This document shows positions 1,397 through 47,529 of a DNA stretch of 64,000 nt, piece after piece. The stretch comes from an uncultured candidatus Porisulfidus sp. GTDB lineage: Bacteria > Pseudomonadota > Gammaproteobacteria > Poriferisulfidales > Oxydemutatoraceae. Position 1 is the first letter of the stretch. Each line of letters begins with the position of its first letter. The position numbers and the translations under genes were made by a program. The stretch spans positions 234,623 to 298,622 of the forward strand of contig OY843752.1 in assembly GCA_963693105.1 (NCBI GenBank), given 5' to 3'. The notes below the pieces were generated by a model, which was given only the letters and a program-made list of their open reading frames with translations, was not told where the DNA came from and ran no database searches.

Positions 1397-1521
1397 TATG
1401 GGAAACCGGGGCGGGCGGCTCCTGTGAGCCTTATAGTGAGTCAGGCGGTCATGGCGCACCAGCGCAGTGACAATCCCGGCGCTGGCGGCCTTGCCAGCCA
1501 AGGCCTCCGCCGTTTGCCTGA

Positions 1522-1826
1522 ATGGCTCCGGCGGCGGGTCAGAGCGGACAGCAGCAGCAGGGCGATGAGGCCGGTCCAGCCGAAACTGCCGCCGCCGCGG
1601 ACACCGCCGGGGGCAAGCCTCGTCGTCGTCGGACTGAGCGGGTCGCGGATGACGCCGTTGACGACGACGCCGTCTTCATCGTTCGCGCCGCCGTCCTCGA
1701 TGACCGGGGCGGCAGCGTCCGCCGATGTCGTCCGGGCATACCCCGTCGAGCAGCCTCGCGAAACCGGGGCGGCTGCCGTCGCGCGTGTCGAACTCCCTGT
1801 CCTGTACGGGATTCTCCGGCGGCGGG
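1522..1826 (-). pseudogene. Out-of-frame relic of the C-terminal pre-anchor domain and GlyGly-CTERM-like tail, downstream of the 1,992-aa ORF stop
   Basis: The nucleotides are homologous to 7859-8170, the C-terminus of the 8,422-aa gene. One frame reads ENPVQDREFDTRDGSRPGFARLLDGVCPDDIGG. Another reads VIEDGGANDEDGVVVNGVIRDPLSPTTTRLAPGGVRGGGSFGWTGLIALLLLSALTRRRSH. Relative to the large gene there is a 29-nt deletion between ...CCCGGT and ATCGAGGAC. Neither frame matches the upstream ORF, which ends at TGA 1827-1829. Confidence 0.6.
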
Positions 1827-4800
1827 TCAGGGCGCGGAAGATGGAATAACAGCGCCTTCGAGAAACACCCGGATGCGTATCTGCAAGGCGGTCGGCTCGT
1901 CATCGTCCAGAAGCATCGCCGTCGCAGACGATGTCGTTCCCCGCGACACCTCGCCTGCAAACGCGCCTTTCATAAAGCCGGCCTCGTTCGTGGCGCCGAG
2001 CGTGACCGTCAGCGTCGCGGTGGACTCGTGCAAAATGTCCTCGACCGTCGGCACCGTAATCAGCGCGCCGATTGTGCCGGCGGCAAAGGTTACAGTGCCT
2101 GATGCAGGCCCGGCGTAATCTTTCGCATCGGCGGCGATTGTGTACGGAACCGTCACCGGGCCTTCCGAGCCGTTGGCGGCGCCGCTCAGGGTGACTCTGA
2201 AAATTGCGTTATCCCCTTCCTCCACCTGGCCGGGGCCTTCGATGGAATACGTTATCGGGTCGCTTTGCCCGACGACGAACCCGGCACTGTTGGTGCTGAT
2301 GACGGCGGACGGATTGCCGCCGCCGGCGGCGTCCCTCAGCAGCAGCATCACCGTCTCGGTGCTCTCGTTGCGGTTGTCCCGAAGGATGGAAACCAAAACA
2401 GACGTGCTTCCAAACCCGCCGCTGTCGAACGCCAGACGGCCGGCCGTCCGCGTGGCTCCAACGGTAAAGTCATCCTCTTCCGCCGGATTGGCGCCACCGT
2501 CAACGACAATCCAGTCCACTGTCACTGCTTCGGTCGGAGTGTCCACACCGCTCAACTCGACTATGAACTCCGCATCCCCGCCTTCCGATACCTCGACCGG
2601 ATTCGCTCGCACCGACAAAAGGCGCGTCCCCACCAGATTCGCCGGTATCGTCAGACTGGCGACACTCGTCGAAACGGAAATCTCACCCGCGCCCGTGCCC
2701 GCCGATATACCGGTGATTCGTACAACCACCCTCTCGTCGTCTTCCTCGAGGTTGTCCTGGGCAATGGTTACAAATAACTCCGCTGCGATGTCACCCGCCT
2801 CCAGCGGTTGGTCGCCGGCTACCACGGTGCCGGCAGGAATGGCAGTGCCGCCAACGTCGGGAAAGACAGGACCGAAATCAGAGTTTGCCCCGGTGTTCGG
2901 TGCGCGGTTGCCCGTGCCGGTGTTTGTCTGCGTGACAATCTCGACACTCCACGTCACCGTCACCACGGCCGCGCTTGGAGGATCCAACGTCAGTGTGAAC
3001 GCCGCCTCCTGGCCCTCCAACGCCTCTTCGTTCGACCTGCGCACAAAGCCGACTTCAGCCGCGTCGCTTTGCCGAATCGTGACTTCAGCCATCGTCGAGG
3101 CGCCGAGACTTGTCAAACCCGCAGACGTCGCCGCACGCTCCAATTCCAGCACCAACGTCTCGGTGGACTCGTTCAGATTGTCGGCATGAATCGGCAGCAT
3201 CCATTCGCCGCTGGTCGTGCCGGCGGCGATTGTCAGCGGACTGGCGGCGGCGGTGTAATCTGCGCTCCCGGCGCTGCCGCCCAGCGTGAACGACACGTCC
3301 ACATCCGCCGTCGGCGTGCCGCCATCGAGTGTCAGCGTGAAACTCGCCGTCGCCCCTTCGCTCACGACCGCGGTGTCGGCGGATACGGTTACGACCAGCT
3401 CGTCGTCGTCGGTTATCGAAACCTGCAACGGCTCGCCGACATCCGTGCCGCCGTCGGCCAGCGGATCTTCAATATCGGCTTGAATGCTGAAGGTTTCCGT
3501 CGTCTCGTTCAATGAATCGCCTGCAAGCCGGATTACGAAAGAGGCTGCGGCGGCGTTGGCGGCGAAACTCACCGTGCCGGCCGTGGCGCCGGAAAAGTCC
3601 GTGGCCGTCGTCGTGCCGTGGACAACCGCCCACGTCACGCTGGTCGCTGCGCTGAAGCCCATGCCCGACAAACCAATCGTGTATTCGACGCTCACTTCCG
3701 CATCGCCCTCGTCCGGCATCGAAGCGCCTGTCACCGTCAAAGCGCGCACCCCCGCCGTGTTCCGAACAATGGTGAAGCCGGCGCTGCGCTCCGATCCGCT
3801 CAGCGAAACCTCGCCGCCGTCCGCGCCCACTGTCATCGGTTCGCCCAGGACCACTGTCAGAATCTCGTTCCTCTCCCGTTGGTTGTCCTGCACAATGCCG
3901 ACGGTGATTGCGCCTGCGGTCGAACCGGCGGCTATCGTCAGCGAACTGGAAGTGATTGTGTAATCACGCGTTGTAATCCCGGCGGCGGGGGCGACCGAAT
4001 ACGGCACGCGAATGGACGCCGCCGAGCCGGAAGCCGCTCCGCTCAGGATGACATCCAGCACCACATCCATTCCTTCCGACGCCGTCGTCGCCAAAGAGAT
4101 TACCGAGACCGTCAGCGCATCGTCGTCCCGAATCATCGCCGGCGCAGACGACAGTGTTCCCCGCGACACCTCGCCTGCAAACGCGCCTTTCATAAAACCG
4201 GCCTCGTTCGTGGCGCCGACTGTGACCGTCAGCGTCGCGGTGGACTCGTTCAGAACGTCCTCGACCGTCGGCACCGCAATCACCGCGCTGATCGTGCCGG
4301 CGGCAAAGGTTACAGTGCCTGATGCAGGCCCGGCGTAATCCTTCGCATCGGCGGCGATTGTGTACGGAACCGTCACCTCGCCTTCCGAGCCGTTGCTCGC
4401 GCCGCTCAGGATGACTCTGAAAATTGCGTTATCCCCTTCCTCCACCTGGCCGGGGCTTTCGATGGAATAGGTCATCGGGTCGCTTTGCCCAACGACGACC
4501 ACGGCCCTGTTGGTGCTGATGACGGCGCGCGGATCGTTGTCGTCGAGGGTGTCATACATCCTCAGCGTCACCGTCTCGGTGCTCTCGTTCCGGTTGTCCT
4601 GAAGGAGGGGAAGCGAAACAGACGTGCTTCCAAACTGGCTGAACGTAACATTGCCGGACTGCGGCGTGATTCCAGCGACAAAGTCATCCACCTCCGTCCC
4701 ATGGACGCCGCCGCTGAAGAAGCCGCCGATAGTGACATACCAGAACACTGTCACGTCAGCGGTCGGCTCTTCCTCACCGCTCAACTCGATTGTGAACTCC

Positions 4801-7643
4801 GCATTCCCGCCTTCCGATGCCTCAACCGGATCCGCTCGCACCGACAAAAAGCGCGTTGACGCCCGATTGGCCGGTATCGTCAGACTGGCGAAACTCGTCG
4901 AAGCGGAGACCTCGCCCGCGCCCGCGCCCGCCGATACACCGGTGACTCGTACAACCACTCTCTCGTCATCTTCCCCGAGGGTATCCTGGGCAGCCAATAT
5001 AGATAGAGGCAATGCGGTGCTACCCGCCTCCATCAGGGTATTGCCGACGATCATCCCGGCGCCGATCAACTCCTGTGTGCCGTCGATAAAGACCTCAGCG
5101 ACATCAGGGTTTTCCACGGTGTTCGGTGCGCGGGTGCCCGTGCCGGTGTTTGTCTGCGTGACAATCTCGACACTCCACGTCACCGTCACCACATCCGCGC
5201 TTGGGGGATTCAACCTCAGGCTGAGCTCCGCCTCCTCGCCCTCCGACACCTCTTCGCCCGAGATGCGCTCAAAGACGACTTCGGCCGCGTCGCTTTGCCG
5301 AATGATGACTTCAGCCATCGTCGAGGCGCCGAGACTTGTCGAACCCGCCGGCGTCTCCGCACGCTCCAGCGCCAACACCAACGTCTCGGTGGACTCGTTC
5401 AGATTGTCGGCATGAATCAACAGCATCACTTTGCCGCTGGTCGTGCCCGGGGCTATCACCAGCGGACTTGCAGCAACGGCGTAGTCTCCGCCTGCGTCGG
5501 CGGCCCCGCCCACGGCGCTGCCGCCCAGCGTGAATAACACTTCCACATCCGCCGTCGGCGTGCCTTCACTCAGCGTTACCGTGAAACTCGCCGTCGCCCC
5601 TTCGCTCACGACCGCGGTGTCGGCGGACACGGTTACGACCAGCTCGTCGTCGTCGGTTATCGAAACCTGCAACGGCTCGCCGACATCCGTGCCGTCGTCG
5701 GCCAGCGGATCTTCAATACCGGCTTGAATGCCGAAGGTTTCCGTCGTCTCGTTCAATGAATCGCCTGCAAGCCGGATTGCGAAAGAGGCTGCGGCGGCGT
5801 TGGCGGCGAAACTCACCGTGCCGCTTATGGCGCCGGAGAAGTCCGTGGCCGTCGTCGTGCCGTGGACGACCGCCCACGTCACGCTGGTCGCTGCGCTGAA
5901 GTATGCGCCATCCAGACCCATCGTGTATTCGACGCTCACTTCCGCATCGCCCTCGTCCGGCATCGAAGCGCCTGTCACCGTCAAAACACGCGCCGCATCG
6001 TCGTCCAGAATCATCACCGTCGCAGACGACATCGTTCCCCGCGACACCTCGCCTGCAAACGCGCCTTTCATAAAACCGGCCTCGTTCGTGGCGCCGAGCG
6101 TGACCGTCAGCGTCGCGTGAGGCTCGCTCACAGTGTTCTCGACCGTCGGCACCGTAATCACCGCGCCGGTCGTGCCGACGGCAAAGGTTACATTGCCTGA
6201 TGCAGGCCCGGCGTAATCCTCCGCATCGGCGGCGATTGTGTACGGAACCGTCACCTCGCCTTCCGAGCCGTTGCTCGCTCCGTTCAATCTGACGGTGAAC
6301 ACCGCCATCGAGCCTTCCTCCACCTGGCCGGGGCTTTCGATGGAATAGGTCATCGGGTCGCTTTGCCCAACGACGACCACGGCACTGCCGGTGCTGATGA
6401 CGGCACGCGGATCGTTGTCGTCGAGGGTGTCATACATCCTCAGCGTCACCGTCTCGGTGCTCTCGTTCCGGTTGTCCTGAAGGAGGGGAAGCGAAACAGA
6501 CCTGCTTCCAAACTGGCTGAACGTAACATTGCCGGACCGCGGCGTGATTCCAGCGACAAAGTCATCCACCTCCACCCCATGGACGCCGCCGCTGAAGAAG
6601 CCGCCGATAGCGACATACCAGAACACTGTCACGTCAGCGGTCGGCTCTTCCTCACCGCTCAACTCAATCGTGAACTCCGCATTCCCGCCTTCCGATGTCT
6701 CAACCGGATCCGCTCGCACCGACAAAAAGCGCGTTGACGCCCGATTGGCCGGTATCGTCAGACTGGCGAAACTCGTCGAAGCGGAGACCTCGCCCGCGCC
6801 CGCGCCCGCCGATACACCGGTGATTCGTACAACCACTCTCTCGTCATCTTCCCCGAGGGTATCCTGGGCAGCCAATATAGATAGAGGCAATGCGGTGTTA
6901 CCCGCCTCCATCAGGGTATTGCCGACGACCATCCCGCCGGCGATCAAAGCCTGTTCGCCGTCGATAAAGACCTCAGCGACATCAGGGTTTTCCACGGTGT
7001 TCGGTGCGCGGGTGCCCGTGCCGGTGTTTGTCTGCGTGACAATCTCGACACTCCACGTCACCGTCACCACATCCGCGCTTGGGGGATTCAACCTCAGGCT
7101 GAGCTCCGCCTCCTCGCCCTCCGACACCTCTTCGTCCCCGATGAGCTCAAAGACGACTTCGGCCGCGTCGCTTTGCCGGATGATGACTTCAGCCATCGTC
7201 GAGGCGCCGAGACTTGTCGAACCCGCCGGCGTCTCCGCACGCTCCAGCGCCAACACCAACGTCTCGGTGGACTCGTTCAGATTGTCGGCATGAATCAACA
7301 GCATCAATTCGCCGGTGGTCGTGCCGGAGGGAATCCTCAACGGACTGGCGGCGGCGGTGTAATCTGCGCCCACGGCGCTGCCGCCCAGCGTGAACGACAC
7401 TTCCACATCCGCCGTCGGCGTGCCTTCACTCAGCGTTACCGTGAAACTCGCCGTCGCCCCTTCGCTCACGACCGCGGCGTCGGCGGACACGGTTACGACC
7501 AGCGCGTTATCCTGTGCCGACGCCGGTGCGGCCCACAACACACAAAGCAGCAACAGACAAAAAACGCGCGATGCCGCGAGCGCAACAGTGGGGAAAATTG
7601 TCGCTGAATGGCCCCGGCAACCGTTTGAGATGCAAAGTATCAT
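1827..7643 (-). CDS. Calx-beta repeat surface protein, truncated tandem paralog of the giant gene (about 1,938 aa from ATG 7643; the ORF-track start at 7805 gives 1,992 aa)
   Basis: Leader MILCISNGCRGHSATIFPTVALAASRVFCLLLLCVLWAAPASA|QD is nearly identical to the leader of the 8,422-aa protein. The body consists of repeated modules such as VTVSADTAVVSEGATASFTVTLSEGTPTADVEVSFTLGGSAVGADYTAAASPL..G.T.G....IHADNLNESTETLVLAL, which fit the Calx-beta pattern. ATG 7643 was chosen because it aligns with the start of the large paralog. The 7805 start would read through the homopolymer tract and overlap the upstream gene. Confidence 0.85.
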   Translation of the reverse strand: MILCISNGCRGHSATIFPTVALAASRVFCLLLLCVLWAAPASAQDNALVVTVSADAAVVSEGATASFTVTLSEGTPTADVEVSFTLGGSAVGADYTAAASPLRIPSGTTTGELMLLIHADNLNESTETLVLALERAETPAGSTSLGASTMAEVIIRQSDAAEVVFELIGDEEVSEGEEAELSLRLNPPSADVVTVTWSVEIVTQTNTGTGTRAPNTVENPDVAEVFIDGEQALIAGGMVVGNTLMEAGNTALPLSILAAQDTLGEDDERVVVRITGVSAGAGAGEVSASTSFASLTIPANRASTRFLSVRADPVETSEGGNAEFTIELSGEEEPTADVTVFWYVAIGGFFSGGVHGVEVDDFVAGITPRSGNVTFSQFGSRSVSLPLLQDNRNESTETVTLRMYDTLDDNDPRAVISTGSAVVVVGQSDPMTYSIESPGQVEEGSMAVFTVRLNGASNGSEGEVTVPYTIAADAEDYAGPASGNVTFAVGTTGAVITVPTVENTVSEPHATLTVTLGATNEAGFMKGAFAGEVSRGTMSSATVMILDDDAARVLTVTGASMPDEGDAEVSVEYTMGLDGAYFSAATSVTWAVVHGTTTATDFSGAISGTVSFAANAAAASFAIRLAGDSLNETTETFGIQAGIEDPLADDGTDVGEPLQVSITDDDELVVTVSADTAVVSEGATASFTVTLSEGTPTADVEVLFTLGGSAVGGAADAGGDYAVAASPLVIAPGTTSGKVMLLIHADNLNESTETLVLALERAETPAGSTSLGASTMAEVIIRQSDAAEVVFERISGEEVSEGEEAELSLRLNPPSADVVTVTWSVEIVTQTNTGTGTRAPNTVENPDVAEVFIDGTQELIGAGMIVGNTLMEAGSTALPLSILAAQDTLGEDDERVVVRVTGVSAGAGAGEVSASTSFASLTIPANRASTRFLSVRADPVEASEGGNAEFTIELSGEEEPTADVTVFWYVTIGGFFSGGVHGTEVDDFVAGITPQSGNVTFSQFGSTSVSLPLLQDNRNESTETVTLRMYDTLDDNDPRAVISTNRAVVVVGQSDPMTYSIESPGQVEEGDNAIFRVILSGASNGSEGEVTVPYTIAADAKDYAGPASGTVTFAAGTISAVIAVPTVEDVLNESTATLTVTVGATNEAGFMKGAFAGEVSRGTLSSAPAMIRDDDALTVSVISLATTASEGMDVVLDVILSGAASGSAASIRVPYSVAPAAGITTRDYTITSSSLTIAAGSTAGAITVGIVQDNQRERNEILTVVLGEPMTVGADGGEVSLSGSERSAGFTIVRNTAGVRALTVTGASMPDEGDAEVSVEYTIGLSGMGFSAATSVTWAVVHGTTTATDFSGATAGTVSFAANAAAASFVIRLAGDSLNETTETFSIQADIEDPLADGGTDVGEPLQVSITDDDELVVTVSADTAVVSEGATASFTLTLDGGTPTADVDVSFTLGGSAGSADYTAAASPLTIAAGTTSGEWMLPIHADNLNESTETLVLELERAATSAGLTSLGASTMAEVTIRQSDAAEVGFVRRSNEEALEGQEAAFTLTLDPPSAAVVTVTWSVEIVTQTNTGTGNRAPNTGANSDFGPVFPDVGGTAIPAGTVVAGDQPLEAGDIAAELFVTIAQDNLEEDDERVVVRITGISAGTGAGEISVSTSVASLTIPANLVGTRLLSVRANPVEVSEGGDAEFIVELSGVDTPTEAVTVDWIVVDGGANPAEEDDFTVGATRTAGRLAFDSGGFGSTSVLVSILRDNRNESTETVMLLLRDAAGGGNPSAVISTNSAGFVVGQSDPITYSIEGPGQVEEGDNAIFRVTLSGAANGSEGPVTVPYTIAADAKDYAGPASGTVTFAAGTIGALITVPTVEDILHESTATLTVTLGATNEAGFMKGAFAGEVSRGTTSSATAMLLDDDEPTALQIRIRVFLEGAVIPSSAP
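1880..7510 (-). repeat. Coding tandem array of the about 2.2-kb six-Calx-beta supermodule (units of 2,220 and 1,878 bp plus partial units)
   Basis: The anchor string TTCGATGGAATA(C/G)GT(T/C)ATCGGGTC (antisense of P[IM]TYSIE) occurs at 2238, 4458 and 6336. The spacings are 2,220 and 1,878 bp, both multiples of 3. The short unit lacks the DVVLDVILSGAASGSAAS domain. Confidence 0.8.
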
Positions 7644-7684
7644 GTGCCATAAATCGGTCCAGAGACAGCAGGATACCTCCTCGC

Positions 7685-7706
7685 GGGGGGGGGGGGGGGG
7701 GGGGGG
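7685..7706. repeat. 22-nt homopolymer (G on plus strand, C on the coding strand) between the two giant genes
   Basis: Counted directly: G at every position from 7685 to 7706. It starts 42 nt upstream of ATG 7643 and lies 90 nt downstream of the stop of the 8,422-aa ORF. The homologous upstream region of the large gene has no such tract. Confidence 0.95.
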
Positions 7707-7795
7707 TGCGCAACTTGTTGTACCACACGGTTTTTGCAGCATACCCGCTCCGGCAATCTGCTTGCGGAAAACCACACTGCCAACCCGAGGCATGC

Positions 7796-10700
7796 TCAGC
7801 GACATCCTGCACGGGATTCTCCGGCGCCGGCGGCATGTTCAAGACTCCGCATTACAACATGGCTCCGGCGGCGGGCCAGAGCGGACAGCAACAGCAGCAG
7901 GGCGATGAGGCCGGTCCAGCCGAAACTGCCGCCGCTGTGGGCACGGCCGGATGCAAGCCTTGTCGTCGTCGGACTGAGCGGGTCGCGGATGACGCCGTTG
8001 ACGACGCCGTCGTCGTCGTTCGGGCCGCCGTCCTCGATATAAACCACCATGCAATCGCCGCTGCCCGGACCGGGGCGGTAACGCTCGCCGATGTCGTCCG
8101 GGCATACCCCGTCGAGCAGCCTTGCGAAACCGTAGCGGCTGCCGTCTTGTGTGTCGAACTCCCTGACAGCGCGGGTCGCCGGATCATACTTGACCAGGCT
8201 CAAATCTTCGCCGCGAAGGCTGGCTGGCAGCGGAATGATGACGCCCACCGTGCCGCCGACAACGCCCGCCGTCGTCACCTCGGCGTAGTCCACGTCGTGA
8301 ATCGAGAAGTCATACACCACCGGCAGACTCGACGGCAGGTTCTCCCGTGAAGACGCCGCGTAGTCACGGTAACGAACCTCTCCGTCCGCCGCGCCGGCCG
8401 CCTGCGCCTGCATCAACGCCGTGTCGCCTACGCGCAGACCGTGCTGCCTCTGCACCGGGCGGATGTGGTGCCAGACTCTCACGCCGGCCGCCCCCAAAAC
8501 CTCCACCGGCAGATGCGCGACTTCGTCATAGTCGTCGAAAGCATCGGCTATGCCGTCCCGGTCGGTGTCAATCAACGCACGCGCCAGCGGCGTACCCGCA
8601 TCCACCAGCGGGTAATTGAATGTCGCCGACACCCCGCCGACGCCCGGAACCTCGACCCGGACCTCCGTCGTCGCGCCCTCCGCCGTCGCCGGTATCATGA
8701 TCTCACTCTCCACCGTCATCGTCTCGCCGCCCGACTTCGCCTCCACTCTCAACGTGTAGGTCGCGCCGCGCTCCAGCACATTCACCGCCTGGCCGCCGCT
8801 CGTCAACACGGGCAGACCCAGCACCGGCGGAATCTCGGCCGCTGCCGGAACCGACAAAACACTCGTCTGCGTCGAAAGACCCAGCGACAATTCATTCGCT
8901 GCCGGGAAAATCGTCGCCGAAGGCCGCCACAACCTGCCGGAAACACCAGGCAACTCTTCTATCGTCCAGACACCGGGAACACTCGTGCGCGTCGTGAAAG
9001 ACTCGCCGTCGTCGTCCGTCTGCGCCAACACCGTCACCGCTATGCCCGTCGTGAACAAACGCTCCGAGGCCATGTTCAACTCCGGTATGCGTTGAATCAC
9101 CTGCTCCGGCAAACGGCTGACCGTGCTCAAATTCACCGCCCACAATCCGTTCGCTGCCGTCGCCAGCCAGCCAACCCTGTGGTCGGTGCTCGCAGACACA
9201 TTGTTCCAGTCCACAATCTCGCAGCCTCCCGCGCGAACCGGCAGCGCATAGTCCGCCGGGAACCGGCCAAGGCAGCCGTAGCCCGCCACGCCCGCATCGT
9301 AGCCTCCGTCGTAACCGAAAGTCTCGCTCAGGTAATACGCCTGCACGCTCGACGCCGCCGTCTGCGTCGCGCCCGACACCGATGAAACGCCGAGATGCGC
9401 CCGCACTCCGTGCTCGCGGATTCCGGACCAGGCAATGCGAACCGGAGAAACGCGACGGTCGGGGCGAATGGCAAACGCCGGCAAACGGCCCGGCAAGACC
9501 GACGACAGCGGATTCTCGCCCGCCCTGATCTCGGCCACGTCCGCGAGGCCGTCTCCATCCGCGTCCCTCGTCACTATGCTGCGCATTGCCGTCTTGTTCG
9601 TTTGCGAGAGCATCTGATTGCGCCCGATGGACGCATCGGCCAGACCTTCCTCTATGGCGCGGTCGAAGATACCGTCGCCGGCGCCGGGATATTGATACGA
9701 CATATACACCGACGCGCCGTCGGCTTCGGTCAGATTGCGCTCCAGCTCCAGCACGATGAATCCCGGCTCGATATAGCGCGCGTTGCTCACCACGACCGTG
9801 CCTGAACCCGGCCCGGACCTGACTTCCACCGAAAAACCTTCCAGGCCCGAAACCGCCGTTCTCAACACGACATCGGCCGCTTCCGCCGTCGCCTGTGACG
9901 GAAGCAATATCGCCAGATCCTCGTCGGCTTCAAACCACACCTGGTTGCGGCCCGCGGCATACAAGCCGTTCTCCAGTTCCGGCGCCACCGTATCCGTGCG
10001 CAATATCATCGCGTTCACTTCCGGCGGCGTCCCGATGCCGGCGCCGCTGCCGCCGCCGCCGGTGGCTGCCGTCAGGGCGAAGGTGAAACTCTCTTCCCGG
10101 TCGTCATCGTCCCTTGCAATCTGGCGGGCGGCGACGCTGCATCTACGGCCGGGACACACGTTTTCTCCCGACACCGACTGCGTGCCGGTTATCGGGAAAC
10201 CGGCGTCCGGGTTCACGAAGTCCTGCGGCGACGCCGACGGAGAAACGCTGCCGGTGCTGATGCTCCAATCCAGCGACAGCGACTCCGTCAATTCGCCCCC
10301 TTCGAGAAGAACATCGAATGTCGGCTGTCTGCCTTCGGCAAAGCCGCTCGCAGGGCTTATCAACGTCACCGTCGTCGGGTCGTTGTCGGTAATCATGAAT
10401 GTTTGCGGTGAACCGGCTGCACGAACCACGCCGGCGCTGCGCGCGGCATCGTCGGAGACACCGACGTTGAAACTCTCGTCCGCCTCGTTCAGCGTATCCG
10501 CAACCGTGACGACGGTGATGGCGCCGGCGGTCTCGCCGACGGCTATCGTGATGCGGCCATTGCCGGCGTCCGCGTAGTCGGATGACGAAGCGGCGTCGGC
10601 GCCAGACGGCCCGATGACATAGTCCAGCGTCACTGGCTGCGTGTGTTCGCCGCCGCTCAACACCACCGCGACCGTCGCCGTGGCGCCCTCGGCGACAGCG

Positions 10701-13700
10701 CCCGCGCCGCTCAACGTGGCCGTCACCGGATCGTTGTCGGTTATCGTTACGGCGACCGCCTCAAAAGCGCTGCCGCCGTCGCTCATCAAATCCTGCAGCG
10801 AGAAGATGAAGGATTCCGTGGCTTCGTTCAACCCATCGTCCACGACCGTGATTTCGCTGACACTGCCGGTGCGGCTGCCGGCGGCGAAAGTGACGTTGCC
10901 GGTGTTCGACAAATCGGTGGTGGTGGCGCCGTCGCCGGAGCCGCTGATTCTCCATGCAATGACCGTCTCGCCTTCAAACAGCCGGTCGGCTGCGCCCATC
11001 GAAATCTCAAGCGTGTTATATGGACCGTCGCCCTCGGCGAAGTCCAGGCTGGCGGCGATGGTCAGGGTGCGCGCCGCCGTCGTGTTTTCCGGGATGGTTA
11101 TGCTGGTGCGGTCGGCTGCGCCCAGTGCAACCTCGCCGCCGACCGCGCCGGCTACCGGTTCGCCCAGAATCACTGTCAGGGTCTCGGCGTCCTCCGCCAT
11201 GCCGTCATACGCTATGCTGACGGTGATCGTGCCGGCCGTCGTGCCGGTGGTTATCGTCAGCGGGCTGGTCGGAGCGATGGCGTAATCATCGGTGGTGATA
11301 CCGGTGGCGTCGGCGACCTCATACGGCACGTTAATGGACGCCGCCGAGCCGGAAGCCGCTCCGCTCAGAATCACATCCAGCACCACATCCGTTCCTTCCG
11401 GCGCCGTCGGCGGCGGTGGGCTTACCGAGACGGTCAGCGCGTCGTTGTCCACTATCATTGCTGTCGCAGCCGACGGTGTTCCCCGCGACACCGCGCCTGC
11501 CGCCGCGTTTTTGGAAAAGCCGGCATCACTCGCGGCGCCGAGCGTCACCGTCAGCGTCTCGGCGGACTCGTTCAGCAGGTCGTCTGTCAGCGCGACGGTC
11601 AGCTGTACTGTGGTCGTATTCGTGGACACCGTAACCGTCGCCGGTAAAGCGGCATGATCGGCGCCTGAGGCGGTGCCGCCTGGCGGCATGACCGGAACCG
11701 TCACCGCGCCTTCCGAACCTCTGACAGCACCGCTCAATGCGACGGTGAACATCGCGTCCTCGCCTTCCCCGACCTGGTCGGGGCCTTCGATTGAATACGT
11801 TATCGGGTCGCTTTGCCTGACGACGACCTCGGCACTGCCGATGTTGATGGCGGCGGACGGATTGCCGCCGCCGCGGGCGTTCGTCAGCATCACCACCAGC
11901 GTCTCGGCGCTCTCGTTCAGGCCGTCATCGCGGATGGTTACCGACACGCTCCGGCTCCCGAACCCGCTGAAAGTCAAACTGCCGGTCGTCGCCGTATAGT
12001 CATCCGCTTCTGCCGGATTGGCGCCGCCGCCAGCGACAGACCAATCGACTGTCACGTCAGCGGTCGGAGCGTCCTCATCCTCACCGCTCAACTCGACCGT
12101 GAACTGCGCCACTTCGCCTTCCGATACCTCAGCCTGATCCGCACGCACCGACAAAAAGCGCGTCGCCGCCAGATTCGCCGGGATTGTCAGATTGGCGACA
12201 CTCGGCGAGGCGGAGACCTCGCCCGCGCCCATGCCCGCCGATACACCGATGATTCGTATTACCACGCTCTCGGCGTCTTCCTCGCGGCTATCCTGGGCTA
12301 TGCCTATCGAGAAAATGCTTGTGACGTTGCCCATCTCCACCACGGTCGTGCCGACTATCGCGCCGCTGGTTATTACGGCATCGCCGACGGCTCTGAAATC
12401 AGAGTCGGCGATGCTGTTCGGCGCGCGATCGCCCGTGCCGGTGTTCGTCTGCGTGATGACCGAGGCCATCCACGTCACTGTCACCACATCCGCGCTCGGT
12501 GTATCTAAACGCAGCACAAACTCCGCCGTGCCGCCTTCCGACGCCTCTTCGCCCGAACTGCGCGCAAGGACGACTTCCGCCGCGTCGCTTTGCCGAATGA
12601 TGACTTCAGCCATCGTCGAGGCGCCGAGACTTGTCAAACCTGCCGACGTCGCCGCACTGTCCAACGTCAACGCCAACGTCTCGGTGGACTCGTTCAAATT
12701 GTCGGCATGAATCGGCAACATCACTTCGCCGATGGTCGTGCCCGGGGCTATCACCAGCGGGCTTGCGACGATGGCGTAGTCTCCGCCTGCGTCGGCGGCC
12801 CCACCCACGGCGCTGCCTCTCAGCATGAACGACACTTCCACATCCGCCGTCGGCGTGCCTTCACTCAGCGTTACCGTGAAACTCGCCGTCGCCCCTTCGC
12901 TCACCTCACCGGTGTCGGCGGACACGGTTACGACCAGCTCGTCGTCGTCGGTTATCGATACCTCAAACGGATCGCCAGAATCCGTGCCGCCGTCGGACAC
13001 AGAATCTTCAACCGAGGCTTCAATGCTGAATCTCTCCGTCGCCTCGTTCAATGAATCTCCGGCAATCCCGACGGTGAATGACGCGGTGGCGGCGCTCGGA
13101 CCCAAACTCACCATGCCGCTCGTGGCGCCGAAAAAGTCGGTCGCCGTCGTCGTGCCGTGGACAATCTCCCACATCACGCTCCTCGCTTCTGCGAAGCCGG
13201 CTCCCATCAGACCCATCGTGTATTCGACGCTCACTTCCGCATCGCCCTCGGTCACAACCCCGGTGCCTGTTATCGTCAAGACACGCACCGATGTCGAGTT
13301 TTCCGGGATGGTTATGTCGGCGCGGACGGATGTGCCCAGTGCAACCTCGCCGCCGCCTGCACTGGCTATCGGGTTGCCCAGAACCACTGTCAGGGTCTCG
13401 GCGTCCTCCGCCATGCCGTCATACTCTATGCTGACGGTAATCATGCCGGTCGTCGCGCCGGCGGCTATCGTCAGCGGGCTGGTGGGAGTGGTGGCGTAAT
13501 CATCGGCGGTGATACCGGCGGCGGCGGGGACCGAATACGGCACTTCAATCGAAGCCGCCGAGCCGGAAGCCGCTCCGCTCAGGACGACATCCAGCACCAC
13601 ATTCGTTCCTTCCGGCGCCATCGTCGCCGATGGGCTTACCGAGACTGTCAGCGCGTCGTTGTCCTCGATCATCGCCGTCGCAGCCGACGGGGTTCCCCGC

Positions 13701-16700
13701 GACACCGCGCCTGCCGCCGCGTCTTTCATAAAGCCGGCATCACTCGCGGCGCCGAGCGTCACCACCAGCGTGCCGGTGGACTCGTTCAGAACGTCCTCGA
13801 CCGTCGCCGCCGTAATCACCATGCTGGTCGTGCCGGTGGCGATGGTTACAGCGCCTGACGGCGGCCCGGCGTAATCCCCCGCATCGGCGGCGATTGTGTA
13901 CGGAACCGTCACCGCGCCCTCCGAGCCGCTGACAGCACCGCTCAATGTGACGGTGAACATCGCGGCCTCGCCTTCCCCGACCTGGCCGGGGCCTTCGATT
14001 GAATACGTTATCGGGTCGCTTTGCCCGACGACGACCTCGGCACTGGCGGTGCTGATGACGGCGGACGGATTGCCACCGCCGGCGGCGTTCGTCAGCATCA
14101 CCACCAGCGTCTCGGCGCTCTCGTTCAGGCCGTCATCGCGGATGGATACCGACACGACCTGGCTCCCGAACACGCTGAAACTCAAACTGCCGGTCGTCGC
14201 CCTATAGTCATCCGCTTCTGCCGGATTGGCGCCGCCGCCAGCGACAGACCAATCGACTGTCACGTCAGCGGTCGGGTCGTCCACGCCGCTCAACACGACC
14301 GTGAACTGTGCATCCATACCTTCCTCTATCGTTTCCTGATTCGCATGCACCGACAAAAAGCGCGTCGCCGCCAGATTCGCCGGGATTGTCAGATTGGCAA
14401 CATCTGGCGAGGCGGAGATCTCGCCCGCGCCCATGCCCGCCGATACACCGATGATTCGTATCACCACGCTCTCGTCATCTTCCTCGCGGCGATCCTGGGC
14501 TATGCCTATCGAGAAAGCGCTTTCGTCGTCTCCGATCTCCACCACGGTCGTGCCGACTATCGCGCCGCTGGTTATCACGGCATTGACGCCGCCGCTGAAA
14601 TCAGAGTTGTCGGCTTCGTTCGGGCCGCGGTCGCCCGTGCCGGTGTTCGTCTGCGTGATGACCGAGGCCATCCACGTCACCGTCACCACATCCGCGCTCG
14701 GCGTATCTAAACGCAGCACAAACTCCGCCGTGCCGCCTTCCGACGCCTCTTCGCCCGAACTGCGCGCAAGGACGACTTCTGCCGCGTCGCTTTGTGCAAT
14801 CGAGACTTCAGCCATCGCCGCGGCGCCGAGACTTGTCAAACCTGCCGACGTCTCCGCACGGTCCAACGTCAACACCAACGTCTCGGTGGACTCGTTCAGA
14901 TTGTCGGCATGAATCGGCAACATCACTTTGCCGATGGTCGTGCCCGGGGCTATCACCAGCGGGCTTGCGACGATGGCGTAGTCTCCGCCTGCGTCGGCGG
15001 CCCCGCCCACGGCGCTGCCGTCCAGCATGAACGATACTTGCACATCCGCCGTCGGCGTGCCGCCATCGAGTGTCAGCGTGAAGCTCGCCGTCGCCCCTTC
15101 GCTTACGCCCGCGGTGTCGGCCAACACGCTGACTGTCAGCTCGTCGTTGTCGGTGACCGATACCTCAAACGGATCGCCAGAATCCGTGCCGCCATCGGAC
15201 ACAGAATCTTCAACCGAGGCTTCAATGCTGAAGGTCTCCGTCGCCTCGTTCAATGAATCTCCGGCTATCCCGACGGTGAATGACGCGGTGGCGGCGCTCG
15301 GACCCAAACTCACCATGCCGCTCGTCGCGCCGGTAAAGTCGGTCGCCGTCGTCGTGCCGTGGACAACCTCCCACATCACGTTCCTCGCTTCTGCGAAGCC
15401 GGTTCCCATCAGACCCATCGTGTATTCGACGCTCACTTCCGCATCGCCCTCGGACAGAACCCCGGTGCCTGTTATCGTCAATGCACGCACCGATGTCGTG
15501 TTTTCCGGGATGGTTATGTCGGCGCGGACGGATGTGCCCAGTGCAACCGCGCCTCCGCCTGCACTGGCTATCGGGTTGCCCAGAACCACTGTCAGGGTCT
15601 CGGCGTCCTCCTCCATGCCGTCATACTCTATGCTGACGGTGATCGTGCCGGTCGTCGCGCCGGCGTCTATCGTCAGCGGGCTGGTGGGAGTGGTGGTGTA
15701 ATCATCGGTGGTGATACCGGCGGCGGCGGGGACCTCATACGGCACTTCAATTGATGCCGCCGAGCCGGAAGCCGCTCCGCTCAGAATCACATCCAGCACC
15801 ACATCCGTTCCTTCCGGCGCCGTCGCCGCCGATGGGCTTACCGAGACTGTCAGCGCGTCGTTGTCCTCGATCATCGCCGTCGCGACGTGGCGGGCGGGGT
15901 CGAGGTCGCGCGTCACCGCGCCTGCCGCCGCGTCTTTGGAAAAGCCGGCTTCACTCGCGGCGCCGAGCGTTACTACCAGCATACCGGTGGACTCGTTCAC
16001 AGCGTCCTCGACCGTCATCGCCGTAATCATCGTGCTGGTCGTGCCGACGGCAAGGGTTACAGTGTTTGACGGCAGCCCGGCGTAATCCCCCGCATCGGCG
16101 GCGATTGTGTACGGAACCGTCACCGCGCCCTCCGAACCGCTGACAGCACCGCTCAATCTAACGGTGAACACCGCGTCCTCGCCTTCCCCGACCTGGCCGG
16201 GGCTTTCGATTGAATACGTTATCGGGTCGCTTTGCCCGACGACGACCGCGGCACTGTCGGTGCTGATGACGGCGGACGGATTGCCGCCGCCGGCGGCGTT
16301 CGTCAGCATCACCATCAGCGTCTCGGCGCTCTCGTTCAGGCCGTCATCGCGGATGGATACCGACACGACCTGGCTCTCGAACAAGCTGAAACTCAAACTG
16401 CCGGTCGTCGCCGTATAGTCATCCGCTTCTGCAGGATTGGCGCCGCCGCCAACGACAGACCAATCGACTGTCACGTCAGCGGTCGGAGCGTCCTCATCCT
16501 CACCGCTCAACTCGACCGTGAACTGCGCATCCATGCCTTCCGATACCTCAGCCTGATTCGCACGCACCGACAAAAAGCGCGTCGCCGCCAGATTCGCCGG
16601 GATTGTCAGATTGGCAACATCCGGCGAGGCGGAGATCTCGCCCGCGCCCGTGCCCGCCGATATGCCGATGATTCGTATCACCACGCTCTCGGCGTCTTCC

Positions 16701-19700
16701 TCGCGGCGATCCTGGGCTATGCCTATCGAGAAAGCGCTTTCGTCGTCTCCGATCTCCACCACGGTCGTGCCGACTATCGCGCCGCTGGTTATCACGGCAT
16801 TGACATCGCCGACGGCTCTGAAATCAGAGTTGTCGGCTTCGTTCGGGCCGCGGTCGCCCACGCCGGTGTTCGTCTGCGTGATGACCGAGGCCATCCACGT
16901 CACCGTCACCACATCCGCGCTCGGTGTATCTAACAAAGTCAGCACAAACTCCGCCGTGCCGCCTTCCGACGCCTCTTCGCCCGAAGTGCGCGCAAGGACG
17001 ACTTCCGCCGCGTCGCTTTGTGCAATCGAGACTTCAGCCATCGTCGTGCCGAGAACGATCGAACCCGCAGACGGCATATTCACCGCATCGGTCAACTCCA
17101 CCGTCAGCGTCTCGGTGGACTCGTTCAGATTGTCGGCATGAATCGGCAACATCAATTCGCCGCTGGTCGTGCCGGCGGCGATTGTCAGCGGACTGGCGGC
17201 GGCGGTGTAATCTGCGCTCACGGCGCTGCCGCCCAGCGTGAACGACACGTCCACATCCGCCGTCGGCGTGCCGCCGTCGAGTGTCAGCGTGAAACTCGCC
17301 GTCGCCCCTTCGCTTACGCCCGCGGTGTCGGCGGACACGCTGACTGTCAGCTCGTCGTCGTCGGTTATCGAAACCTGCAACGGCTCGCCGACATCCGTGC
17401 CGCCGTCGGCCAGCGGATTTTCAGTGCCGACTTCAACGCCGAAGGTCTCGGTCGCCTCGTTCAATGAATCGCCGGCAAGCAGGATTGCAAAAGAGGCTGT
17501 GGCGGCGTTGGTGGCGAAACTCACCGCGCCGCTTATGGCGCCGGAGAAGTCCGTGGCCGTCGTCGTGCCGTGGACAACCGCCCACGTCACGCTGGTCGCT
17601 GCGCTGAAGCCCGCGCCATCCAGAACCATCGTGTACTCGACGCTCATTCCCGCATCGCCCTCGGCCACAACCCCGGTGCCTGTTATCGTCAAGACACGCA
17701 CCGATGTCGTGTTCCGAACAATGGTGACGCCGGCGCTGCGATCAGCGAGGATTGAGCTCAGCGAAACCTCGCCGCCGTCCGCGCCGACTTCCGGTTCGCC
17801 CAGGACCACTGTCAGAATCTCGTCCTCCTCCTGTCGGTTGTCACGCTCTATGCCGACGGTGATCGTGCCTGTGGTCGAACCGGCGGCTATCGTCAGCGGG
17901 CCGGTGGGAGTGGTGGTGTAATCATCGGTGGTGATACCGGCGGCGGCGGCGACCTCATACGGCACTTCAATCGATGCCGCCGAACCGGAAGCCGCTCCGC
18001 TCAGAATCACATCCAGCACCACATCCATGCCTTCAGACGCCGTCGTCACCGACGACCTCACGGCAACCGTCAGCGCGTCGTTGTCCTCTATCATCGCCGT
18101 CGCGCCGTGGCGGGCGGGGTCGGTGTCGCGCGTCACCGCGCCTGCTGCCGCGTCTTTCATAAAGCCGGCTTCACTCGCGGCGCCGAGCGTTACTACCAGC
18201 ATACCGGTGGACTCGTTCACAGCGTCCTCGACCGTCATCGCCGTAATCATCGTGCTGGTCGTGCCGGCGGCAAGGGTTACAGTGTTTGACGGCAGCCCGG
18301 CGTAATCCCCCGCATCGGCGGCGATTGTGTACGGAACCGTCACCGCGCCCTCCGAACCGCTGACAGCACCGCTCAATATGACGGTGAACATCGCGTCCTC
18401 GCCTTCCCCGACCCGGCCGGGGCCTTCGATTGAATACGTTACCGGGTCGCTTTCGGCAATCATCACGCGCGCCCGGCCTGCGCCTCTCAGGGCCGGGGCC
18501 TCCTGAGCGCCGCCCGACGGAGACGACAGCTGAACCGTCAGCGTCTCGCTCGACTCGTTCAGGTTGTCAGAGAGCAACGGAATCACGACCCTTTGCGTGG
18601 TTTGCCAGTCCGACGGCGTGAAGGTCAGCGTGCCGGTCGTGCCGGCGGCGTAATCTTCACGCTCCACCGTTCCCGTAATCGAATACATCACCGTCGCCGT
18701 ATTCACTCCGCCGTCCACCTCATTCACCAGCGCGATATTGAATGTCGCCGTCGCGCCTTCGGCCACAACCGCGTCCACAGAGTCAATCTCGTAAAACAGC
18801 GTCGTCGCCGCATTCTCACGAATCGCCACCTCCGCCGTGGCAGCCGCGCCCAGGGTCACCCGTCCGGCGCCCGAACCCGGCTGCGGCGGTTGCAAAGACA
18901 CGACCAGTGTTTCCGTCGTCTCCGCCATGCCGTCCGGCAGCAACGTCAGGGCTATCGTCGCCCGGGTCGAACCCGGACTCAGGGTCACGGAGAGCATCGT
19001 GTCGGCCAGCGCGTAGTCTTGCGTTGTTACTCCGCCGATTGTGAACGGCACTTCCACAGCGCCTTGCGATTCAACATCCAGGTTGATATGGAACATCACC
19101 TCGTCGCCCTCGTTCACCGGCGAGGTGTCCGCGCCCGCGCGCTCGACCGATACCATGGCGTCGTCGTTGTCGGCGACCACCACCGTGGCCGAGCCGGACG
19201 ACGCGCTCAACTCCAGATAATCCAACGACGCTCCGTTCACGCGGACGTCGTTCAGCGTCAGCACAACCGTCTCGTCCGACTCGTTGACCTCGTCGTCGGT
19301 CAGCACAACCGTCACCGACGCCGTCGTGTTGAACGGAACCTGCGTGGCCCCGGTGGTCGCGCCCGTGTAATCCGCGCCGGCGGTGGCGGTGCCGCCCAGA
19401 GTCCACGAAACCATCGCCGATGTCGCGCCGCCTATCTCGCCCAGCGAAAGCGCCGCGCCCCCGGCGCTGACGAATTGCAAGTCAAAGACCGCCGACTGCC
19501 CTTCCGTGAGCGTCGTCGAGGCGGCGATCACCGCTATCCCGGCAACGTCGCTGCGCTCAACGTCAACGGCGGCGGCGGCCTGCGATACTTCAACCACGCC
19601 CGCGCTGCGCCCGCCCGTCAGCATGACCGTCAGCGTTTCGGTGGACTCCGGAACCGTGTCGTCGGCTATCGCGATCGCGATTTCCTCGCTCATCGAGCCG

Positions 19701-33090: not shown

Positions 33091-33118
33091 ATTATAACCT
33101 CTATCCATTCGATTTCAC
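33091..33118 (-). promoter_or_regulatory. Putative sigma70 promoter of the giant gene
   Basis: Minus strand GTGAAA (33118-33113), 16 nt spacer, then a perfect TATAAT (33096-33091) 27 nt upstream of ATG 33064. No clear Shine-Dalgarno precedes the ATG, so the start and TSS remain uncertain. Confidence 0.3.
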
Positions 33119-33248
33119 CGCGCCAATCCGTTCAGAAACCTATTGCACGACAAGATTTTCGCCGCATTCCCGCCCCGGCAACCTGCTTGCGGCAAGCCGG
33201 ACCGCCAATCCGGGGCATGTGCCCGGCGACATAGCACGTACGGGGTTC

Positions 33249-33310: not shown

Positions 33311-33332
33311 GCGGCGCGTTCAAGACGCCGCA

Positions 33333-47521: not shown

Positions 47522-47529
47522 TGCCGTCT

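What the first reader, a model, noticed from the sequence alone, without database searches (positions are those of the whole stretch)
7685..7706. 22-nt poly-G/C tract in the junction between the two giant genes: candidate phase-variation switch for the downstream paralog
Seen in the sequence:
- An uninterrupted run of 22 G (C on the coding strand) begins 42 nt upstream of ATG 7643.
- The upstream regions of the two giant genes align well on both sides (...GCAAGCAG(G/A)TTGCCGG... and ...CTGTCTC(C/T)GGACCG...ATG).
- The tract exists only in front of the small gene. It replaces the segment that holds GTGAAA-16 nt-TATAAT in front of the large gene.
- The -10 equivalent there is TATCCT, 9 nt from the tract.
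- If translation began at 7805 instead, the tract would encode Pro7 and every length change not divisible by 3 would shift the frame.

Established knowledge: homopolymer tracts in promoters or 5' coding regions of surface-protein genes drive slipped-strand phase variation in Neisseria, Haemophilus, Bordetella and others.

Inference: expression of the 1,938-aa paralog may be switchable or graded.
Basis: partly seen in the sequence, partly recalled or inferred. Interest (0 to 1): 0.7.

Follow-up and report, generated by a model that had tools for sequence, protein, structure and literature searches.

The report
Poly-C tract replacing an adhesin promoter
A real and statistically extreme run of 22 G (22 C on the gene strand) replaces the -35 part of the promoter of the smaller of two giant secreted repeat-protein genes, so it looks like a slippage-prone on/off or dimmer switch of the kind known from Bordetella fimbrial genes, but no reads or related strains were available to show that its length varies.

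Summary
G22 lies at 7685-7706 and is the only homopolymer longer than 8 in the 64 kb; about 1e-6 or fewer such runs are expected by chance. It sits in the 152-nt gap between the stop of the 8,422-aa gene (7796) and the ATG of the 1,938-aa gene (7643), both on the minus strand. The two 5' regions are paralogous copies. The spacing from the -10 hexamer to the ATG is 26 nt in both. The tract replaces, almost in register (36 vs 40 nt), the segment that holds the large gene's GTGAAA-16-TATAAT promoter. The small gene keeps only TATCCT, 9 nt below the tract.

The best reading (about 0.4) is a hypermutable poly-C covering the -35 position, as in Bordetella fim promoters, where B. bronchiseptica fim3 also carries 22. 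The reading in which the tract encodes Pro7 is unlikely.

New context weakens a simple "switchable adhesin" picture. The small gene has lost its C-terminal anchor domain, which survives as an out-of-frame remnant, and the whole locus is a rearranged tandem array. Even so, the 5.8-kb ORF has stayed open.

Rivals are a promoter-killing scar, a Rho-loading site, an artefact or wrong length, and a G4 recombination site. No conspecific sequence exists in any collection searched, so length variation is untested. This is a new member of a known kind, of moderate interest.

The parts
7685..7706 (-). Poly(C)22 on the coding strand (G22 on +). It spans about -43 to -22 relative to the inferred transcription start, covering the -35 position and the upstream part of the spacer.
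   Evidence: The position relative to the promoter is inferred from the paralog alignment.
7676..7684 (-). The 9 nt GCGAGGAGG between the tract and the -10-like hexamer. It is weakly homologous to GATAGAGGT of the large gene.
7670..7675 (-). -10-like hexamer TATCCT (matches T1, A2, T3 and T6 of TATAAT). It is the positional equivalent of TATAAT at 33096-33091 and lies 26 nt before the ATG, as in the large gene.
7744..7767 (-). Conserved upstream block CCGCAAGCAGATTGCCGGAGCGGG, containing GCAA-N5-TTGC. It is a candidate activator site. It ends 68 nt from the -10 here and 72 nt in the large gene.
   Evidence: The function is inferred only.
1827..7643 (-). Small giant gene, 1,938 aa. It has a signal peptide (...VLWAAPASA/QD) followed by about 2.6 repeat units of 2.2 kb rich in Calx-beta domains. 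It has no C-terminal anchor.
   Evidence: The open frame has been maintained.
1520..1826 (-). Out-of-frame remnant of the C-terminal anchor domain (REFDT...IEDGGANDEDG...GGSFGWTGLIALLLLSALTRRR) with a 29-bp deletion. The junction motif CGCCGGAGAATCCCGTACAGGA lies at 1800-1821.
7796..33064 (-). Large giant gene, 8,422 aa, with Calx-beta and PKD domains. Its C-terminal domain, transmembrane segment and basic tail are intact.
33091..33118 (-). Sigma-70-like promoter of the large gene, GTGAAA-16-TATAAT. This is the segment whose -35 half is replaced by the tract in the small gene's copy.
33225..33332 (-). Relic of a C-terminal tail plus the CCGGAGAAYCCCGT junction motif between the aroB stop and the large gene's promoter. 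Homology with the small gene's upstream module starts at the aroB stop.

Best explanation
The tract is a genuine, slippage-prone poly(C).poly(G) run in the core promoter of the small paralog.

The small gene's 5' region is a diverged copy of the large gene's promoter-plus-signal-peptide module. The -35 hexamer and the upstream part of the spacer have been replaced by C22, leaving a weak -10 (TATCCT) at the conserved distance from the ATG.

Replication slippage should change the number of C's at high frequency. Each change shifts the distance and helical phase between the conserved upstream block, which may be an activator site, and the -10. Transcription of the small gene from its own promoter would therefore be switched or graded stochastically in the population. 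This is how BvgA-dependent Bordetella fim2/fim3/fimX promoters work, where the -35 is itself part of the C-stretch.

At 22 C there is no recognisable -35, and the spacing is 4 bp shorter than in the large gene. The sequenced state is therefore probably OFF or low unless an activator compensates.

Shown: the existence, position and in-register replacement of the tract, the loss of the -35, and the retention of a -10-like hexamer. Established knowledge: a homopolymer this long is hypermutable. Inferred: that length changes alter expression, and that this is adaptive.
For: - The run is 22/22 pure and about 1e-6 or fewer are expected by chance.
- It lies inside a collinear paralogous alignment. 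Anchor-to-(-10) distance is 36 vs 40 nt, upstream block to -10 is 68 vs 72 nt, and -10 to ATG is 26 nt in both. It was therefore created in place and is not a join of unrelated sequences.
- The large gene has a 10/12 promoter exactly there, and the small gene has none.
- The small ORF is stop-free over 1,938 codons although its repeat units differ by dS 0.06-0.35 from each other and from those of the large gene. At 7% neutral divergence 9 stop codons would be expected (P = 1e-4). The gene is or recently was under selection to stay open, so it needs a way to be expressed.
- The product is secreted and repeat-rich with Calx-beta domains, the class of gene usually linked to contingency loci.
- Precedent: promoter C/G tracts of 22 (fim3) and 20 (fim2) in B. 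bronchiseptica (PMC1891110). In fim promoters CCCCCC is the -35, co-centric with the proximal activator site (PMC7250471). A single C gain or loss switches fim3, and one culture holds a mix of lengths (PMC10172299).
Against: - No reads, strains or related contigs cover the tract, so variation is unobserved.
- No activator or binding site has been identified. The conserved upstream block may be conserved only because the duplication is young.
- The small gene has lost its anchor domain, and dN/dS among its units is 0.8-1.2. Both are compatible with decay.
- No terminator-like site separates the two genes, so the small gene may be transcribed by read-through whatever the tract length.
- The large copy has no short C-run at this place from which the tract could have grown.
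Confidence: 0.4

Rival explanations
1. Non-adaptive scar. The small paralog is a remodelled, partly decayed copy. Its own promoter was destroyed when the -35 segment was replaced by a run that then expanded by slippage. The tract varies in length, but this has no regulatory consequence. The gene is silent or is expressed only by read-through from the large gene.
For: - The C-terminal anchor domain is out of frame, has a 29-bp deletion and lies behind a stop codon. A related metagenome contig keeps an intact domain next to gltB.
- Repeated CCGCCGGAG-type junction motifs and a tail relic upstream of the large gene show repeated illegitimate recombination.
- No -35 is present.
- dN/dS within the small gene reaches 1.2.
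- No terminator-like site lies between the genes.
Against: - The 5.8-kb ORF is intact despite substantial divergence.
- The tract is perfectly pure. By established knowledge, an old neutral homopolymer would be expected to be interrupted or shortened.
- The -10-like hexamer and the exact 26-nt distance to the ATG are retained.
- dN/dS of 0.66-0.86 is also seen among repeat units inside the large gene, so a high ratio is a property of the family and not a sign of decay.
Confidence: 0.25
2. Rho-loading (rut-like) site. In RNA read through from the 25-kb large gene, the tract is C22. Poly(C) is the strongest known ligand and ATPase activator of Rho (established knowledge). The tract would terminate or attenuate read-through and insulate the small gene.
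For: - C is on the transcribed (sense) strand.
- The tract lies 90 nt after the large gene's stop, where ribosomes have left the RNA.
- 78-nt windows containing it reach 45% C and 19-23% G, a C/G ratio of about 2, against 0.6-0.9 just upstream.
- No intrinsic terminator-like site was found between the genes.
- No stable RNA structure is predicted (z = +0.5).
Against: - The C-richness comes only from the 22 nt, and the flanks are G-rich. Natural rut sites are usually spread over 60-80 nt.
- No intrinsic terminators were found elsewhere in the locus either, so their absence here says little.
- This does not explain why the tract sits exactly in register with the paralog's -35 and spacer.
Confidence: 0.12
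3. Sequencing or assembly artefact, or a real tract whose length is wrong. Examples are poly-G calls from two-colour Illumina chemistry, collapse of a longer homopolymer, or a long-read consensus error.
For: - The source is evidently an uncultured organism: the closest relatives are MAGs and nothing identical is in any collection.
- Homopolymers of this length are miscalled by every platform (established knowledge).
- 22 equals k+1 for the common minimum k of 21, which is probably coincidence.
- A poly-C13 at a contig end in L141 shows that such artefacts exist in MAGs.
Against: - The tract is internal to a contig of at least 64 kb and is flanked on both sides by sequence collinear with the paralog at nearly conserved spacing.
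- Poly-G read tails can only end a read, so they give G-tails on one strand and C-heads on the other. They cannot produce X-G22-Y (reasoning).
- The neighbouring 8,422-codon and 1,938-codon ORFs, and all housekeeping genes checked, are free of frameshifts, so consensus quality is high.
Confidence: 0.12
4. Structure-forming recombination element. G22 on the + strand can fold into a G-quadruplex (C22 into an i-motif) and stimulate gene conversion between the mosaic giant paralogs, as the pilE-linked G4 does in Neisseria gonorrhoeae (established knowledge, recalled from memory).
For: - The tract sits at the junction of two paralogs that share 2.2-kb units with patchy 60-98% identity.
- The locus shows several rearrangement junctions.
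- Four G3 blocks with 1-nt loops fit within 22 G.
Against: - The G-rich strand is the template strand for both genes. That is the wrong strand for transcription-driven G4 formation unless an antisense transcript exists, and none is predicted near it.
- The rearrangement junctions seen use CCGCCGGAG microhomology, not the tract.
Confidence: 0.06
5. Translational switch. Translation starts at ATG 7805 or ATG 7742, the tract encodes Pro7, and length changes not divisible by 3 shift the frame.
For: - The frame is open from 7805 through the tract into the main ORF.
- ATG 7742 has GGAG 5 nt upstream.
Against: - The extension would put 54 aa (from 7805) or 33 aa (from 7742) in front of a signal peptide that is conserved from ATG 7643 / 33064 onward.
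- In the large paralog the ATG equivalent to 7742 opens an 11-codon ORF that stops.
- 54 open codons at 64% GC is not unusual.
- A frameshift would still leave ATG 7643 usable.
Confidence: 0.05

Closest known systems
Bordetella fim2/fim3/fimX promoter 'C-stretch' (BvgA-activated, phase-variable fimbrial subunit promoters)
   Same: - Poly-C lies on the coding strand, immediately upstream of a -10 element.
- The -35 position lies inside the C-run (CCCCCC; PMC7250471).
- Tract lengths are 20-22 in B. bronchiseptica and 10-18 in B. pertussis (PMC1891110).
- Single-C changes switch expression, and cultures hold mixed lengths (PMC10172299).
- The downstream gene encodes a surface adhesion protein.
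   Different: - Here the gene is a 1,938-aa Calx-beta repeat protein, not a fimbrial subunit.
- The organism is an uncultured gammaproteobacterium near Ca. Oxydemutator, not a betaproteobacterial pathogen.
- No BvgA-type activator, fim box or binding heptads were identified.
- No length variation has been observed.
Promoter-spacer homopolymer tracts of Neisseria and Haemophilus (for example poly-C of opc, poly-G of porA; established knowledge, recalled from memory)
   Same: A G/C homopolymer in the core promoter of a surface-protein gene. Slipped-strand mispairing changes promoter geometry and gives graded or on/off expression.
   Different: Those tracts lie between recognisable -35 and -10 hexamers and are about 8-17 nt long. 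Here no -35 remains, and a 22-nt run would put any upstream hexamer about 32 nt from the -10.
Rho utilisation (rut) sites
   Same: C-rich, G-poor, unstructured RNA downstream of a stop codon in a co-directional gene pair.
   Different: The C-richness is confined to 22 nt and no termination has been shown.
pilE-associated G-quadruplex of Neisseria gonorrhoeae
   Same: A G-rich, structure-prone element next to a variable surface-protein gene that has paralogous donor sequence nearby.
   Different: This is a pure homopolymer and not a G3-loop motif, it lies on the template strand, and there is no evidence of an sRNA promoter or of conversion tracts starting there.

Membership tests
Simple-sequence-repeat contingency locus (slipped-strand phase variation) | A repeat tract much longer than chance allows | tested here: met
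   G22, with about 1e-6 or fewer expected. It is the only run longer than 8 in 64 kb.
Simple-sequence-repeat contingency locus (slipped-strand phase variation) | The tract lies in a promoter or 5' coding region, so that length changes alter expression | tested here: inconclusive
   The promoter position is inferred from the paralog alignment and consensus scan. No TSS or expression data exist.
Simple-sequence-repeat contingency locus (slipped-strand phase variation) | Tract length is polymorphic within populations or between strains | not testable with these tools
   No reads are available. Pattern scans of genome and metagenome collections found nothing. Exact-protein look-ups failed. The nearest relatives are at most 89% identical in DNA, on contigs of 3.4 kb or less that lack the junction.
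Simple-sequence-repeat contingency locus (slipped-strand phase variation) | The controlled gene encodes a surface or secreted protein | tested here: met
   Signal-peptide-like N-terminus and 8 Calx-beta stretches.
Bordetella fim-type C-stretch promoter | C-run on the coding strand covering the -35 position, with the -10 a few nt downstream | tested here: met
   C22, then 9 nt, then TATCCT. With a 16-17 nt spacer the -35 falls on CCCCCC. Compare PMC7250471.
Bordetella fim-type C-stretch promoter | Response-regulator (BvgA) binding sites or 'fim box' upstream of and overlapping the tract | tested here: inconclusive
   There is a conserved 24-nt block with GCAA-N5-TTGC 68 nt upstream of the -10. 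No regulator is known, and no BvgA-type heptad repeats were recognised by eye in the upstream block (no formal motif scan was run).
Bordetella fim-type C-stretch promoter | The downstream gene is a fimbrial major subunit | tested here: not met
   Pfam finds Calx-beta only.
Rho-dependent terminator | About 70-80 nt of C-rich, G-poor, unstructured RNA, followed by termination | tested here: inconclusive
   C/G reaches about 2 only in windows that include the tract. No structure is predicted. Termination is not testable.
GlyGly-CTERM / choice-of-anchor sorted proteins (context of the two genes) | Match to the curated C-terminal sorting-domain models | tested here: not met
   NCBIfam gives only choice_anch_U at 29 bits against a cutoff of 32, and no GlyGly-CTERM model at E <= 0.01. 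The resemblance (GGSFGW + hydrophobic stretch + RRR) is by eye.

The most novel reading that the evidence does not exclude
The G22/C22 tract is not only a promoter switch but also a structure-forming hotspot (G-quadruplex or i-motif) at the joint of a tandem array of mosaic giant adhesin genes. It would drive gene conversion and unequal exchange between the expressed large gene and a promoter-less, anchor-less donor copy. That would be an antigenic-variation-like system in an uncultured bacterium whose nearest named relatives are sponge symbionts.
Probability: 0.05. Interest if true: 0.75.

Novelty: new member of a known kind. Interest (0 to 1): 0.4.

Why it matters
Phase variation through homopolymer tracts is documented almost only in cultured pathogens and commensals. 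A clear candidate in an uncultured gammaproteobacterium near Ca. Oxydemutator would suggest that such bacteria also hedge their bets on surface or secreted adhesion proteins. That lineage includes a species described from the sponge Stylissa (PMC11685487). The tract controls a copy of a giant Calx-beta protein that has lost its anchor.

The locus also gives a testable example of how a duplicated promoter can turn into a C-stretch promoter of the Bordetella fim type.

On the practical side, the tract length in any assembly of this organism should be treated as uncertain, and it could serve as a strain or population marker.

Tried and rejected
Searches for the same or a closely related locus, to compare tract length:
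- Exact-product look-ups for both possible small-gene products and for a multicopper oxidase found nothing on record.
- Flank pattern GGATACCTCCTCGC-N(1-31)-TGCGCAACTTGTTG gave 0 hits in genome contigs and 0 in metagenome contigs.
- The signal-peptide-coding 21- and 24-mers that are identical in both paralogs gave 0 hits.
- The N-terminal 400 aa had no relative in genome contigs. The N-terminal 500 aa gave one 29%-identity hit among 5.8 billion proteins.
- The gltB N-terminus gave a best hit of 72%.
- AroB loci were at most 60% identical and were useful only as a homopolymer background.
- The C-terminal domain found five JGI fragments. Their contigs are 1.9-3.3 kb and end inside the giant gene. 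One, L162, is syntenic with gltB, but none covers a gene-gene junction.

Features looked for and not found:
- A known RNA family: only isrK at 17.6 bits, E = 0.27, at 7559-7633 and not overlapping the tract; discounted.
- Inverted repeats for an invertible promoter: only weak matches at chance level.
- Stable RNA structure around the tract or its paralogous site: z = +0.5 and -0.4.
- Real genes on the + strand across the tract: no Pfam hits.
- Other candidate SSR loci in the window.
- A sigma-54 promoter. TGGCAC...TTGCA at 7648-7630 has the wrong spacing and overlaps the ATG (by eye).

Not held in the library: the papers with the detailed Pfim3 sequence. The recalled 8-nt gap between the C-stretch and the -10 in Pfim3 is therefore not used as evidence.

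Full report
**1. The observation**

The + strand carries exactly 22 uninterrupted G at 7685-7706. Nothing else in the 64-kb window (63.9% G+C) exceeds 8, and apart from the tract the longest G run is 6. From base composition, about 1e-6 runs of this length are expected, and about 1e-8 under a first-order model. That run lay 11 nt from a contig end, the usual place for poly-G artefacts.

- The distance to ATG 7643 is as stated.
- The conserved blocks lie on both sides of the tract.
- GTGAAA-16-TATAAT stands in front of the large gene (33118-33091, 10/12 matches, 0.1 expected per kb).
- TATCCT lies 9 nt below the tract.
- The frame from ATG 7805 encodes Pro7.

**2. Anatomy of the locus**

Both genes are on the minus strand.

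The large gene (33064 to 7796, 8,422 aa) carries Calx-beta and PKD domains. It ends in a domain weakly resembling choice-of-anchor U, followed by GGSFGW, a hydrophobic stretch and RRR.

The small gene (7643 to 1827, 1,938 aa) has 8 Calx-beta stretches. It consists of a signal peptide followed directly by about 2.6 repeat units of 2.2 kb, and four such units also occur in the large gene. It aligns with residues 5351-7242 of the large protein at 51% identity.

The 5' modules of the two genes are paralogous, from the point corresponding to the aroB stop codon (33333) down to the signal-peptide cleavage site. Identity is 87% over the signal-peptide coding part.

Within this collinear alignment only the tract region fails to align:
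- Between the anchors AGTT and the -10 hexamer there are 36 nt in the small copy and 40 in the large copy.
- From the conserved block TTGCCGGRGCGGG to the -10 there are 68 vs 72 nt.
- From the -10 to the ATG there are 26 nt in both.

The tract therefore replaces about 23-26 nt, including the -35 hexamer, almost base for base. With the transcription start placed about 7 nt after the -10 hexamer, the tract occupies about -43 to -22. No sigma-70-like site is detected in front of the small gene.

**3.

The small gene is a truncated derivative. Its stop codon at 1827 is followed by a remnant of the large gene's C-terminal domain. About 90% of the remnant is alignable, but it lies in another frame and a 29-bp deletion breaks it again.

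A 22-nt motif, CGCCGGAGAATCCCGTRCAGGA, marks both this junction (1800-1821) and the 3' end of the large gene (7805-7826). A degenerate relic of the C-terminal tail also lies between aroB and the large gene's promoter. The locus is thus a tandem array reshaped by several exchanges at CCGCCGGAG-type microhomologies.

In a related metagenome contig (L162; gltB 89% identical in DNA), the giant gene next to gltB has an intact C-terminal domain. The loss in the window is therefore derived.

The small ORF is nevertheless not decayed. It has no stop in 1,938 codons, while the other five frames have 13-108. Given synonymous divergence of 0.06-0.35 between repeat units, about 9 nonsense mutations would be expected at only 7% neutral change (P about 1e-4). 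dN/dS is high everywhere in this family: 0.66-0.86 among units of the large gene, 0.72-0.85 between the genes for the closely related units, and 0.78-1.24 within the small gene. The ratio therefore does not separate function from decay.

**4. Organism and comparative data**

Neighbouring genes are those of a gammaproteobacterium: gltB, aroB, a class A PBP, hemE and priA.

HemE is 81-83% identical to MAGs of Ca. Oxydemutator and to a MAG named PNGst_S_binSS2. Oxydemutator thiolithooxidans is described as a symbiont of the sponge Stylissa (PMC11685487).

No sequence of the same species was found anywhere. Exact-protein look-ups, flank-pattern scans and homology searches all failed or returned distant relatives. 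The few related contigs are 1.9-3.3 kb and stop inside the repeats. The key prediction, tract-length polymorphism, could therefore not be tested.

**5. Mechanism**

A pure 22-nt homopolymer is expected to be highly unstable during replication. That is established knowledge on slipped-strand mispairing, and cultures of B. pertussis hold 11-16 C at fim3 simultaneously (PMC10172299). Hypermutability is thus close to certain if the tract is real.

The best-supported functional reading is a promoter of the Bordetella fim type. In Pfim2, Pfim3 and PfimX the -35 is CCCCCC inside the C-stretch and is co-centric with the promoter-proximal BvgA site. Replacing it with TTGACA makes the promoter weaker and constitutive (PMC7250471). 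One C more or less switches fim3 (PMC10172299). B. bronchiseptica carries 22 C/G at fim3 and 20 at fim2 (PMC1891110).

The window shows the same layout: C-run, 9 nt, then a -10 retaining T1, A2, T3 and T6. It also has a conserved block upstream that could hold an activator, at a distance 4 bp shorter than in the large gene.

I place this reading at about 0.4. The steps from "tract in promoter position" to "length controls expression" and then to "adaptive switch" are inferred.

**6. Rivals**

- (a) A non-adaptive scar in a remodelled copy that is transcribed, if at all, by read-through (0.25). The lost anchor and the absence of any -35 or terminator favour it. The maintained ORF, the purity of the tract and the preserved -10 geometry count against it.
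- (b) A Rho-loading site (0.12). The RNA carries C22 90 nt after the large gene's stop, and 78-nt windows reach C/G of about 2. The C-richness is only 22 nt wide.
- (c) An artefact or a wrong length (0.12). In-register placement between collinear flanks and frameshift-free giant ORFs argue that the tract is real, and poly-G read tails cannot create an internal X-G22-Y. The exact number 22 should still not be trusted.
- (d) A G4 or i-motif recombination hotspot (0.06).
- (e) A translational switch from ATG 7805 or 7742 (0.05). This is unlikely because it would bury the conserved signal peptide, and because the ATG equivalent to 7742 in the large paralog opens only an 11-codon ORF.

**7. Other checks with negative results**

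- No credible Rfam match: one sub-threshold isrK hit (17.6 bits, E = 0.27) downstream of the tract, discounted.
- No convincing inverted repeats for an invertase switch.
- No unusual RNA structure.
- No plausible + strand gene.
- No other long simple repeats in the window.

**8. Verdict**

The target gene is an anchor-less derivative in a rearranged array, which keeps a non-functional reading alive. If true, this is a new member of a known kind in an unusual host lineage. Interest is moderate (0.4).

Noticed in passing
window 1520-1829 (minus strand): The small giant gene ends at a stop that sits on a recombination junction. Behind it lies an out-of-frame remnant of the C-terminal anchor domain with a 29-bp deletion; the domain is intact in the large gene. 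The predicted product would therefore be secreted without its C-terminal anchor.
   Followed up: yes
window 33225-33335 (minus strand): Between the aroB stop and the large gene's promoter lies a degenerate relic of the same C-terminal tail plus the CCGGAGAAYCCCGT motif. Homology with the small gene's upstream module begins at the aroB stop codon, which indicates a former longer tandem array.
   Followed up: partly
window 1800-1821 and 7805-7826: The exact 22-nt motif CGCCGGAGAATCCCGTRCAGGA occurs twice (0 expected), each time at a 3'-end junction of a giant gene. It is probably the microhomology used in the rearrangements.
   Followed up: partly
window 2145-7531 and 11109-20540: Repeat units of 2.2 kb (about 735 aa) are shared by both giant genes, three in the small and four in the large. 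Identity is patchy at 60-98%, and dN/dS is 0.66-1.24. This suggests ongoing conversion and fast or diversifying evolution.
   Followed up: partly
window 7740-7742 and 33165-33167 (minus strand): A conserved ATG preceded by GGRGCGGG occurs in both upstream regions. In the large gene it opens an 11-codon uORF (MRRKSCRAIGF*). In the small gene the same ATG reads through the C22 (Pro7) into the main ORF.
   Followed up: partly
window 7611-7621, 33035-33045, 33172-33182 (a fourth copy at 7744-7754 has A for the first G): The motif GTTGCCGGRGC recurs upstream of the promoter and again about 25 nt inside each coding region (3 exact matches, 0.2 expected). It could be a regulator site or simply part of the duplicated module.
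   Followed up: no
L162 1-1989 (JGI sample 3300007147): A related organism (gltB 89% identical in DNA) has a giant gene with an intact C-terminal domain directly upstream of gltB. This is the same synteny as in the window, but the contig ends inside the repeats.
   Followed up: yes
L141 11-23: A C13 run lies 11 nt from a contig end in an unrelated MAG. It is a typical contig-end poly-G artefact and a useful contrast to the internal tract studied here.
   Followed up: no
window 46691-48454 and 48850-49276: Two adjacent minus-strand ORFs without Pfam matches share 74-81% identical segments about 1 kb apart. A 179-nt segment is also tandemly duplicated at 91% identity, in or next to a 5'-3' exonuclease gene.
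   Followed up: no
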